Of a DNA stretch of 64,000 bases, positions 34,408 to 36,837 are shown in pieces; the first letter of the stretch is position 1, and each line of letters starts with the position of its first letter. Source of the stretch: Pseudomonadota bacterium (GTDB lineage Bacteria > Pseudomonadota > Alphaproteobacteria > UBA2136 > UBA6156); assembly GCA_016125035.1 (NCBI GenBank), contig WGMN01000016.1, forward strand, positions 1,554 through 65,553. The letters run 5' to 3'. The position numbers and the translations under genes were made by a program. The notes under the pieces are model-generated. The model saw only the letters and a program-made list of their open reading frames with translations. It ran no database searches and was not told where the DNA came from.

Positions 34408-36018
34408 ATGGATACCAACCTCGCTTCACGGCTGAAAACTCTTATCCAGCAACGCGGTCTCACCGCGGCTGGCCTTGCGCGCCAGGCCGGGCTCTCGGTG
34501 GCCAGCCTCTCGCGCATCCTTTCTGGCCAAACCAACCCGTCTTTTCAAAGCGTCAGCCGCATCGCCGCGGCCCTGGGCGTGGGGCTGGAGAGCCTCTCCC
34601 CCGCCCCCACCCAGGCCACTGCCCCTCTGGCCGAGAACACCGTCCGCGCCGTCTATACGCTTGAAAACACCGACCATTCCACGCAAGAAGCCGGCCAGCT
34701 CATGCTCCAGGCCGCCCTGGGCAGCTGGAGCCACAGCTGGATGCACCCCTACGTCGCCGAAGGCATAGAAGCCCCCACCCTCGCCTCGGCCAGCCAAAGC
34801 GGCAGCCACCGCCAACAGGTGCAACTGGCCTTCCCCCACCAATTGGTAGAGGGCGGCAGCGTCGCCAGCCTGCTCAGCGTGGTCACCAGCGCGCTCTCGG
34901 GCACCGGCGCGCGGCTGCTGGATGTCACCGTCCCGCCCACCCTCATCCGCACCTTCTCCGGCCCGGCCTTCGGGCTGCGCGGCCTGCGCGATACCTTCAA
35001 CAAACACGGCCGCCCGCTGCTGGCCTGCACCATCCGCCCCATGCACGGGCTCTCTCCCCGGCTTTACGGCCGCGCGGCGTTCGAGGCCCTCATCGGCGGG
35101 GTGGATATCACCGTCGATCCCGCCCTGCTGCACTCCATCCCCTCCAACCCGTGGCGAGAACGCTTCCGCTTCGTGGCGGAAGCCGCCGCCGCCGCCTCGC
35201 GTGAAACCAATGAGTTTAAAACCCACGCCGTCAACATCACCGCCCCCACCATGGAAGACATGCTGGAACGCGCCACCTGGGCCAAAGAGCTGGAATTGGC
35301 GATGGTGATGGTCGACACCGCCGCCATCGGCTGGTCGGCGGTGCAAAGCTTGGGGGCATTCTGCGCCAAAAATGAGCTCATCCTGTGCGCGCTCGGCACC
35401 CGCAGCCTCAACGGCTCCATGCTGTCCGAGCAACTCCAGGCCAAGCTCCTGCGCATCTGCGGGGCCGATGCCGTCTCCACCGGCTCGCCGCTGCGCGGCA
35501 ACGTCTCCAACCGCCGCTACGTCACCGGGGTGCTCTCGGCGCTGCGCGATGATTCCCTCCCCGCCCAGCCAGAGGCCGGGCACCACCTGCCCCAACCTTT
35601 CGAGGGCCTCACCGCCGCTATCCCGGCGGTGGGCGGCGGCCACAACCCGTGGCAATTCCCCCGGCTGATCGACGCCATTGGCGATAACGCCCTCATCCAG
35701 TGCGGCGGCGCGGTCATGAGCCACCCCTGGGGCGGCCAGGCCGGGGCCACCGCCTGCCGCACGGCTATCGAGGCCCTGGTCCAGGCCCGCGGCGAGGGCC
35801 ACAACCTCAACGTGGAAGGCCGCTCCATCCTGCTCAAGGCCGCCAAATACAGCCCCGACCTCAAACAGGCGCTCGATACCTTCCAGGAAGGCTCGTTCCT
35901 GTTCGGCGTGGTGCACACCCTCTCCCGCCCCACGGAAGGCTCGATCCTGCCGGGAACCAACAACCCCAGCCCAACAATAACCCCCTTCCGCCGCCCGGAG
36001 CCGACCAATGAAGACTAG
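34408..36018 (+). CDS. XRE-family helix-turn-helix domain fused to a RuBisCO large-subunit-like protein (form-I-like, catalytic residues replaced)
   Basis: 536 aa. N-terminus [58 protein letters not shown] is an XRE HTH. The rest aligns with RbcL across both domains ([70 protein letters not shown]). The ORF-track extension to 33880 is rejected. Confidence 0.85.
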   Translation: [536 protein letters not shown]

Positions 36019-36502
36019 CGCCGATATACTGCAATTGGCCATGGAGCAAGCCGTCCAGGCCGCCGCACAAGCCGAGTACCCCTTCGGCGCGGCCATCGTC
36101 AAAGAGGGCCGTATAATCTGTGCAGAAGGTTCCGGAGCGGCAGAAAATGAGCCCGACCCCACCGCACATTCCGAGGTCAACGCCATCCGTAAAGCCGCCA
36201 AAATCCTCGGCACCGCCAACCTTTCAGGCTGCACACTGGTCTCCTCGTGCGAACCCTGTCATCTGTGCTTTGGCGCCATGTATTACGCCGGTATCCGAAC
36301 GCTGGTAACCGCAAGCTCGATTAAACAGATGGAAACCATCGGCTGGAAATGGCCGGAAAAAGACTTGGCCACCCACCCGGAAACCTACAAAACCGTAAAC
36401 ATCGCCCTCACCGAAGGACTGTTGCACAATGAGGTGATGGCCATGTACCGCCAGCATCCCCAGGCACGAATCACGAATAACGAATCACGAGTTACGATAT
36501 GA
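36008..36502 (+). CDS. CMP/dCMP-type (CDA fold) zinc deaminase, TadA/guanine-deaminase-like
   Basis: 164 aa with HSEVNAI (H.E) and CEPCHLC (PC..C) zinc motifs. Its start overlaps the upstream stop by 11 nt. Confidence 0.85.
   Translation: MKTSADILQLAMEQAVQAAAQAEYPFGAAIVKEGRIICAEGSGAAENEPDPTAHSEVNAIRKAAKILGTANLSGCTLVSSCEPCHLCFGAMYYAGIRTLVTASSIKQMETIGWKWPEKDLATHPETYKTVNIALTEGLLHNEVMAMYRQHPQARITNNESRVTI
36465..36499. repeat. heptamer tandem repeat CACGAAT-type x5, at the deaminase C-terminus next to the rbcS-like start
   Basis: cacgaatcacgaataacgaatcacgagttacgata encodes ARITNNESRVTI* and ends at the ATGA overlap with the next gene. Confidence 0.85.
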
Positions 36503-36837
36503 GATTTGAAACCTTCGCCTTCCTCCCCCCGCTCTCCCCCCAACAGGTGGAGGCGCAGGCCAACCATATCCTCACCCAGGGCCACCTCCCCACCATCGAG
36601 TTCGCCGAGAACCCCAGCAGTGCCGATTTCTACTGGCGCTCATGGCCCATCCAACCGGGGCGCATCAACAGCCTCACCGGCAAGCCGGAACCCCTCACCG
36701 CCGCCCACCTCACCAACCAGCTGGAAGCCTGCGCCCGCCGCCACCCCTACGCCTTCATCCGCCTGTCGGCCTATGATCCCAAAACCCGCCAAACCACCCT
36801 CTCCTTCATCACCAAAACCCCGCAGGAAGGCCAGTAG
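36499..36837 (+). CDS. RuBisCO small-subunit (RbcS/CbbS) homolog
   Basis: 112 aa. RFETFAFLPPLSPQQVEAQANHILTQGHLPTIEF...FYWRSW...HPYAFIRLSAYDPKTRQTTLSFI parallels cyanobacterial RbcS [34 protein letters not shown]...FYWTMW...[20 protein letters not shown]. ATGA overlap with the deaminase gene. Confidence 0.85.
   Translation: MRFETFAFLPPLSPQQVEAQANHILTQGHLPTIEFAENPSSADFYWRSWPIQPGRINSLTGKPEPLTAAHLTNQLEACARRHPYAFIRLSAYDPKTRQTTLSFITKTPQEGQ

What the first reader, a model, noticed from the sequence alone, without database searches (positions are those of the whole stretch)
34408..36837. Operon encoding an XRE-HTH::RuBisCO-large-subunit fusion with a dead active site, a CDA-fold deaminase and an RbcS homolog
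What the sequence shows:
- One uninterrupted ORF (34408-36018) starts with a textbook XRE helix-turn-helix ([54 protein letters not shown]).
- It continues into a full-length RuBisCO large-subunit fold that is closest, by my manual alignment, to form I.
- [41 protein letters not shown] aligns with spinach [41 protein letters not shown].
- [56 protein letters not shown] aligns with [56 protein letters not shown].
- [54 protein letters not shown] aligns with [56 protein letters not shown].
- Every catalytic position I can place is replaced: K175->R210, K177->M212, carbamylated K201->V236, Mg ligands D203->P238 and E204->A239. The HIHRAMH segment becomes CALGTRS. In the DHIHSGTVVGK segment, which becomes [11 protein letters not shown], H327->S and K334->R.
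- The last gene (36499-36837) is an unmistakable RbcS homolog.
- A zinc deaminase gene sits between them.
- All three genes overlap (ATG 36008 lies before TAG 36016-18; ATGA at 36499-36502).
- No prk, cbbX or carboxysome genes are in the window. The only pentose-phosphate gene (rpe) is 20 kb away.

Established knowledge: known RuBisCO-like proteins (form IV) keep the carbamylated lysine and never pair with small subunits.

Inference: this is a non-carboxylating L+S RuBisCO-derived assembly. It may have been recruited as a DNA-binding regulator, as a ligand-sensing scaffold, or as a platform for the deaminase.
Basis: partly seen in the sequence, partly recalled or inferred. Interest (0 to 1): 0.95.

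Follow-up and report, generated by a model that had tools for sequence, protein, structure and literature searches.

The report
Rubisco-derived DNA-binding protein with partner
This bacterium carries a gene in which a DNA-binding module is fused to a copy of Rubisco, the CO2-fixing enzyme, with every catalytic residue replaced. The gene sits next to a Rubisco small-subunit look-alike, and the genome has no working Rubisco at all. The pair belongs to a conserved family found across many uncultured bacteria and looks like a Rubisco that has been turned into a non-enzymatic, probably regulatory, protein complex.

Summary
Window 34408-36018(+) encodes a 536-aa protein made of an XRE HTH domain (Pfam HTH_3, E 9e-12) followed by a complete RuBisCO large-subunit fold (Pfam E 1.5e-58). 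The AlphaFold model matches form I RbcL structures at TM 0.86-0.91. All catalytic residues are replaced: K175R, K177M, K201V, D203P, E204A, H294 deleted, H298R, H327S, K334G and S379G. Across 89 homologs (40-71% identity) these replacements are uniform, and the new residues R, P, R, S and G are invariant, so the lost active site is a conserved trait of the clade, not decay. The clade is sister to canonical form I in a maximum-likelihood tree, and in 7 of 7 relatives' loci it is followed by an RbcS-like gene (36499-36837). The genome (1.45 Mb) and four relatives' genomes have no other Rubisco. The deaminase between the two genes is a lineage-specific insert, not part of the conserved unit. Best reading: a Rubisco-derived, non-catalytic L+S complex that binds DNA, probably a transcription regulator with a re-made effector pocket. 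Binding to DNA, any ligand and the function itself are untested.

The parts
34392..34405 (.). 14-bp palindrome TTGCATAAATGCAA just upstream of the start codon; candidate operator
   Evidence: sequence; single copy in genome; not conserved in relatives
34408..36018 (+). HTH-RbcL-like fusion gene (536 aa, P0001)
34432..34590 (+). XRE/Cro-C1 HTH domain (aa 9-61), invariant recognition-helix region SLSRILSG
   Evidence: Pfam HTH_3 E 9.2e-12; conserved in the clade
34650..35940 (+). RbcL-like N-terminal and TIM-barrel domains (about aa 83-505) with the active site fully replaced (R210, M212, V236, P238, A239, S at the H327 position, G at K334, G at S379)
36008..36502 (+). CDA-fold deaminase (TadA/MafB19-like), lineage-specific insert between L and S; overlaps both neighbours
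36499..36837 (+). RbcS-like small subunit (112 aa, P0003), conserved partner
37106..37139 (.). strong bidirectional intrinsic terminator ending the operon

Best explanation
The HTH-RbcL fusion and its RbcS-like partner form a Rubisco-derived, non-enzymatic protein complex that binds DNA through the N-terminal XRE HTH domains and most likely acts as a transcription regulator. The former Rubisco active-site pocket has been remodelled, with invariant Arg at the K175 and H298 positions, Ser at H327, Pro at D203, and the phosphate-binding glycine loops kept. It probably senses a phosphorylated metabolite rather than catalysing anything, and the RbcS-like subunit is probably needed for assembly (L-S, possibly L8S8-like) as in form I Rubisco. 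Shown: the fusion, the fold, the total and conserved loss of the Mg/carbamate catalytic machinery, the conserved L+S gene pair, the placement next to canonical form I, and the absence of any other Rubisco in these genomes. Inferred: DNA binding, regulation, a ligand, and oligomeric assembly.
For: HTH_3 at aa 9-61 and an RbcL fold. The AF2 model is confident (pLDDT 85), with the HTH a separate domain on a flexible linker. The HTH is present in all clade members, including the deepest branches, and its recognition region is invariant. All active-site residues are replaced uniformly in 89 homologs; the new residues R, R, S, G and D202 are invariant, against 8.5% invariant columns overall, which points to constraint on a re-made pocket. 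Carboxylation is impossible without K201, D203 and E204 (established Rubisco chemistry). RbcS-like gene follows in 7 of 7 loci; its homologs form a fusion-linked family of 53; L-S binding is predicted, ipSAE 0.66 vs controls 0.00, with the RbcS N-terminal loop on the L C-terminal domain. The clade is sister to canonical form I, so it descends from the SSU-bearing lineage. No canonical Rubisco in this genome or in four relatives' genomes, so it is not a paralog that helps a working Rubisco. A strong terminator closes a 3-gene operon.
Against: No DNA-binding site or regulon was found: the upstream palindrome is unique and not conserved. Neighbouring genes are housekeeping (aaRS, PGM/PMM, FtsH) and give no hint of a target pathway. 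The L-S prediction may reflect similarity to solved Rubisco L8S8 structures (caveat). L8 assembly and HTH display in an oligomer were not modelled. No ligand is known.
Confidence: 0.5

Rival explanations
1. An enzyme with a new chemistry in the remodelled pocket (not carboxylation, not Mg/carbamate-dependent), the HTH serving only for localisation or feedback.
For: The invariant new residues (R, R, S, P, G) and conserved P1-phosphate glycine loops suggest a functional pocket.
Against: The HTH fusion is ancestral and universal, which argues for a DNA-related role. No metal ligands are left at the Mg site.
Confidence: 0.15
2. A structural or nucleoid-associated complex that binds DNA without sequence specificity (for example DNA protection or compaction) through a multimeric display of HTH domains.
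For: HTH plus a potentially large L8S8-like oligomer (inference). A stable chromosomal locus.
Against: XRE HTHs usually bind specific operators. No evidence of oligomer size.
Confidence: 0.15
3. Part of an anti-phage defence or toxin-antitoxin-like module (HTH regulators such as CapH occur in defence systems).
For: Weak PADLOC hits of the HTH to capH and related models.
Against: PADLOC hits are HTH-only and generic. The locus is conserved among housekeeping genes in 8 genomes, not in a variable defence island. There is no effector nuclease.
Confidence: 0.08
4. The deaminase is a functional platform partner of the L+S complex.
For: Co-transcribed in one operon with overlapping starts and stops.
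Against: Absent in all 7 relatives' loci; the slot holds a VOC protein, a membrane protein or nothing. Lower GC. Separate canonical TadA in the genome.
Confidence: 0.05
5. A decaying Rubisco pseudogene.
For: Loss of catalytic residues.
Against: Intact ORFs in 89 homologs with invariant substituted residues. Conserved partner gene.
Confidence: 0.01

Closest known systems
Form I Rubisco (L8S8, RbcL+RbcS; e.g. spinach, Synechococcus, ancestral SSU-bearing Rubisco 7QSW)
   Same: RbcL fold (TM 0.86-0.91); closest sequence family; conserved RbcS partner; predicted L-S interface
   Different: N-terminal HTH replaces RbcL residues about 1-50. The whole catalytic machinery is replaced. Not a carboxylase. 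The clade is sister to canonical form I, not inside it.
Form IV Rubisco-like proteins (RLPs: MtnW DK-MTP-1P enolase, OiaX decarboxylase)
   Same: Rubisco-derived proteins with non-carboxylase roles
   Different: RLPs keep the K201/Mg machinery, are enzymes, lack small subunits, and branch outside form I. NCBIfam scores for MtnW/OiaX are far below cut-off.
Enzyme-derived transcription regulators (e.g. B. subtilis PurR, HTH + inactive PRTase fold binding PRPP; MocR/GabR, HTH + aminotransferase fold) - from my own knowledge
   Same: HTH DNA-binding module fused to a metabolic-enzyme fold whose catalytic residues are lost or repurposed for effector binding
   Different: No such regulator built on a Rubisco fold, or needing a separate small subunit, was found in the literature searched.
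Form I' and I-E Rubiscos (deep form-I-related clades; form I' lacks RbcS) - per PMC11707681
   Same: Branch near the base of form I
   Different: These are catalytic. Form I' lacks RbcS, whereas this clade has one. Their position relative to this clade was not tested (not sampled).

Membership tests
Form I Rubisco (carboxylase) | Catalytic K201 (carbamylated), D203, E204 Mg ligands | tested here: not met
   K201->C/A/V, D203->P, E204->T/A in all 89 clade members
Form I Rubisco (carboxylase) | K175, K177, H294, H327, K334 (loop 6), S379 active-site residues | tested here: not met
   R, M/L, deleted, S, G, G respectively, uniform across the clade
Form I Rubisco (carboxylase) | RbcL fold and sequence closest to form I | tested here: met
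   NCBIfam PRK04208 best; Foldseek TM 0.86-0.91; sister to form I in the tree
Form I Rubisco (carboxylase) | Small subunit partner (RbcS) encoded with RbcL | tested here: met
   PF00101 E 2e-18, downstream in 7/7 loci, predicted L-S binding
Form I Rubisco (carboxylase) | L8S8 hexadecamer | not testable with these tools
   Too large for complex prediction (1000-residue limit); only L2+S modelled
Form IV RLP | Retains K201 and Mg ligands; no small subunit; outside form I | tested here: not met
   K201 lost; RbcS present; sister to form I
XRE/Cro-C1 HTH transcription regulator | HTH_3 domain | tested here: met
   HTH_3 E 9e-12; NCBIfam HipB/RstR-like HTH matches
XRE/Cro-C1 HTH transcription regulator | Sequence-specific operator binding / autoregulation | tested here: inconclusive
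   A palindrome sits at the start codon, but it is unique and not conserved in relatives; no binding data

The most novel reading that the evidence does not exclude
A widespread clade of bacteria that lack a working Rubisco has turned an SSU-bearing, form-I-type Rubisco into a DNA-binding complex: an HTH-RbcL/RbcS assembly (possibly L8S8-like, displaying 8 HTH domains) that senses a phosphorylated metabolite in the old active site and regulates transcription. Because it branches as sister to canonical form I, it also implies that the small subunit was recruited before the catalytic form I radiation, in an ancestor whose descendants later lost catalysis.
Probability: 0.35. Interest if true: 0.85.

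Novelty: new variant of a known kind. Interest (0 to 1): 0.75.

Why it matters
If confirmed, this would be the first Rubisco-superfamily member known to have left catalysis altogether for DNA binding. It would also be the first non-catalytic lineage to keep a dedicated small subunit. That bears on two open questions: what the Rubisco small subunit does beyond tuning catalysis, and how the L8S8 architecture arose. The clade branches beside canonical form I. The family is annotated in databases only by generic names, and no characterisation was found.

Tried and rejected
- Deaminase as a conserved partner: rejected. It is absent from 7/7 relatives' loci, the L-S slot holds other genes, and the genome has a canonical TadA elsewhere.
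- Conserved operator: the palindrome at 34392-34405 occurs once in the genome and is not conserved upstream of homologs. Inverted-repeat scan of the upstream regions found no shared motif.
- Mobile-element signature around the deaminase: no terminal repeats or target-site duplication found.
- Literature: no paper on HTH-Rubisco fusions or Rubisco-derived regulators in the searched library.
- Defence-system link: the PADLOC hits are generic HTH only.
- The upstream in-frame TTG extension (33880) is Pro/Arg-rich, high-GC noise; the start at 34408 is shared with homologs.
- The predicted L-S binding is reported with its caveat: a textbook pair may pass by likeness to solved L8S8 structures.
- The MAG taxonomy labels of relatives (Blastochloris viridis, Pseudomonas fluorescens) were not trusted, because their flanking genes share about 85% identity with this genome.

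Full report
What is in the window. Window 34408-36018(+) encodes a 536-aa protein (P0001). Its N-terminus is an XRE/Cro-C1 HTH domain (Pfam HTH_3 aa 9-61, E 9.2e-12). The rest is a Rubisco large subunit: RuBisCO_large at aa 191-492 (E 1.5e-58) and a weak RuBisCO_large_N. NCBIfam scores it best against form I (PRK04208, 313 bits) rather than form III (196 bits) or the RLP models. The closest solved structure by sequence is the reconstructed ancestral SSU-bearing form I Rubisco 7QSW (E 2.5e-86). An AlphaFold2 model built with an alignment of 40 homologs has mean pLDDT 85 and pTM 0.75. It shows a separate helical HTH (aa 1-63) on a short flexible linker, then the full Rubisco N-domain and TIM barrel. 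The model matches form I RbcL structures at TM-score 0.86-0.91 over about 432 residues, rmsd about 2 A. The last about 35 residues are disordered. Downstream are a CDA-fold deaminase (36008-36502; dCMP_cyt_deam_1 E 4e-20, TadA-like) and a small-subunit homolog (36499-36837; PF00101 E 2e-18). The small subunit aligns to solved RbcS chains, with the canonical ETF(S/A)(Y/F)LPPL N-terminal motif. A strong bidirectional terminator at 37106-37139 closes the operon.

Active site. Aligned with form I RbcL, the catalytic machinery is entirely replaced. K175 becomes R. K177 becomes M. The carbamylated K201 becomes V (C or A in relatives). The Mg ligands D203 and E204 become P and A (T in relatives). H294 is deleted. 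R295 becomes M/L and H298 becomes R. H325 and H327 become hydrophobic and S. The loop-6 K334 becomes G. S379 becomes G. N123, E60 and T65 of the partner-subunit N-domain are also lost. Without the K201 carbamate and the D203/E204 Mg ligands, Rubisco carboxylation or enolisation chemistry is not possible (established mechanism of the Rubisco superfamily). These changes are uniform across all 89 homologs found (40-71% identity; tabulated), so this is a property of a whole clade, not a decaying gene. The new residues are under constraint. Only 8.5% of alignment columns are invariant across the clade, yet R at K175, D202, R at H298, S at H327, G at S379 and G380 are all invariant, and P at D203 is 99%. 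The P1-phosphate glycine loops (G380/G381/G402/G403) are kept. This suggests a remodelled pocket that still binds something, possibly a phosphorylated metabolite (inference).

The clade. The search for homologous proteins returned about 89 HTH-RbcL fusions before the first canonical form I RbcL at 35-40% identity. Every full-length member, including the deepest branches, carries the N-terminal HTH; the apparent exceptions are truncated gene calls. The HTH recognition region is invariant. A maximum-likelihood tree (IQ-TREE LG+C20+F+G4) is rooted by form III/IV-like sequences, identified with NCBIfam. In it the fusion clade is monophyletic (100/100) on a long stem and sister to all sampled canonical form I (form I IA/B plus IC/D clade 100/96). 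Form I', I-E, I-alpha and I-Anaero were not sampled. Genome contigs gave 7 loci from small-genome MAGs labelled Alphaproteobacteria or Pseudomonadaceae. In all 7, the RbcS-like gene follows the fusion. The neighbourhood is conserved across about 12 kb (tblastx): a class II aaRS with HGTP anticodon domain, PGM/PMM, FtsH and an alpha/beta hydrolase. This is a stable chromosomal locus among housekeeping genes, not an island. The RbcS-like homologs (53, 48-83% identity) all belong to this fusion-linked family. This genome (1.45 Mb, 90.7% complete) holds no other RuBisCO_large or RuBisCO_small hit. Four relatives' genomes (1.3-1.7 Mb) likewise hold only the fusion. These organisms have no carboxylating Rubisco, so the fusion is not a helper paralog of a working enzyme.

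The small subunit as a partner. ESMFold complex prediction of the RbcL-like part (aa 62-500, two copies) with the RbcS-like protein, both given as alignments, scored ipSAE 0.66 against controls at 0.00, with runs agreeing and partner pLDDT 81. The RbcS N-terminal loop (aa 1-23) packs on the L C-terminal helices (aa 448-464) and near aa 190-202. This pass may partly reflect likeness to solved L8S8 Rubisco, a textbook pair, so it shows that the canonical interface is compatible, not that binding occurs. L8S8 assembly could not be modelled.

The deaminase is not part of the conserved unit. It is absent from all 7 relatives' loci. The same slot between L and S is empty in 5 loci and holds a glyoxalase/VOC protein in L001 and a membrane protein with a weak CTP_transf_1 match in L004. 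Its GC is lower (56%, against 68% for the fusion). The genome has a separate canonical TadA (L010, HAE...PCxMC). It is a lineage-specific insertion, co-transcribed in the operon. No repeats marking a mobile element were found.

Regulation. The 14-bp palindrome at 34392-34405 overlaps the start region, but it occurs only once in the genome and is not conserved upstream of the homologs. No regulon or target could be identified.

Interpretation. Best explanation (confidence about 0.5): a Rubisco-derived, non-catalytic L+S complex that binds DNA via the HTH and regulates transcription. Its remodelled pocket (two invariant Arg, Ser, Pro, Gly, with the phosphate-binding glycine loops kept) probably senses a phosphorylated metabolite. 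This works like enzyme-derived regulators such as PurR or MocR (own knowledge), but nothing built on a Rubisco fold with a small subunit was found in the literature. Rivals and their estimated confidence:
- an enzyme with new Mg-independent chemistry: 0.15
- a DNA-organising or protecting multimer: 0.15
- a defence-system component: 0.08 (PADLOC hits are generic HTH only)
- a deaminase platform: 0.05
- a pseudogene: refuted

Novelty: the family is in sequence databases under generic names but appears uncharacterised. I rate it a new variant of a known kind: HTH fused to a repurposed enzyme fold is a known regulatory design, but here it is built on a Rubisco fold. It is the first such case I can find for the Rubisco superfamily, and the first non-catalytic lineage to keep a small subunit. 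Because the clade is sister to canonical form I, it may also bear on when RbcS was recruited (inference; tree sampling limited).

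Noticed in passing
window 37106-37139: Strong bidirectional intrinsic terminator (15-bp GC-rich stem with T-runs on both strands) just after the RbcS-like gene, ending the operon.
   Followed up: partly
window 34426-36234 (-) and other antisense ORFs: Long antisense ORFs (e.g. 602 aa) are artefacts of the GC-rich sequence, not genes.
   Followed up: no
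L001:7630-7995, L004:2174-2710: The slot between the RbcL-like and RbcS-like genes is variable across relatives: VOC/glyoxalase in one, a membrane protein in another, empty in most. Cargo genes here would be co-transcribed with the pair.
   Followed up: partly
whole genome G000 (window = G000:C15:1554-65553): Small genome (1.45 Mb, 18 contigs, 90.7% complete, about 61% GC) with no canonical Rubisco. Relatives' MAGs labelled Blastochloris viridis and Pseudomonas fluorescens share about 85% FtsH identity with it; the labels are probably misassigned.
   Followed up: partly
window 30216-31472 (-), 37942-39381 (-), 40703-42751 (-), 37191-37940 (-), 27130-28392 (-): Conserved flanking genes: class II aaRS with HGTP anticodon domain, phosphoglucomutase/phosphomannomutase, FtsH, alpha/beta hydrolase, MacB-like permease.
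   Followed up: partly
G000:C6 (L010 1342-1929 -) and G000:C5:49527: Genome has a canonical TadA and a further CDA-fold deaminase (possibly RibD N-terminal) besides the operon's deaminase.
   Followed up: partly
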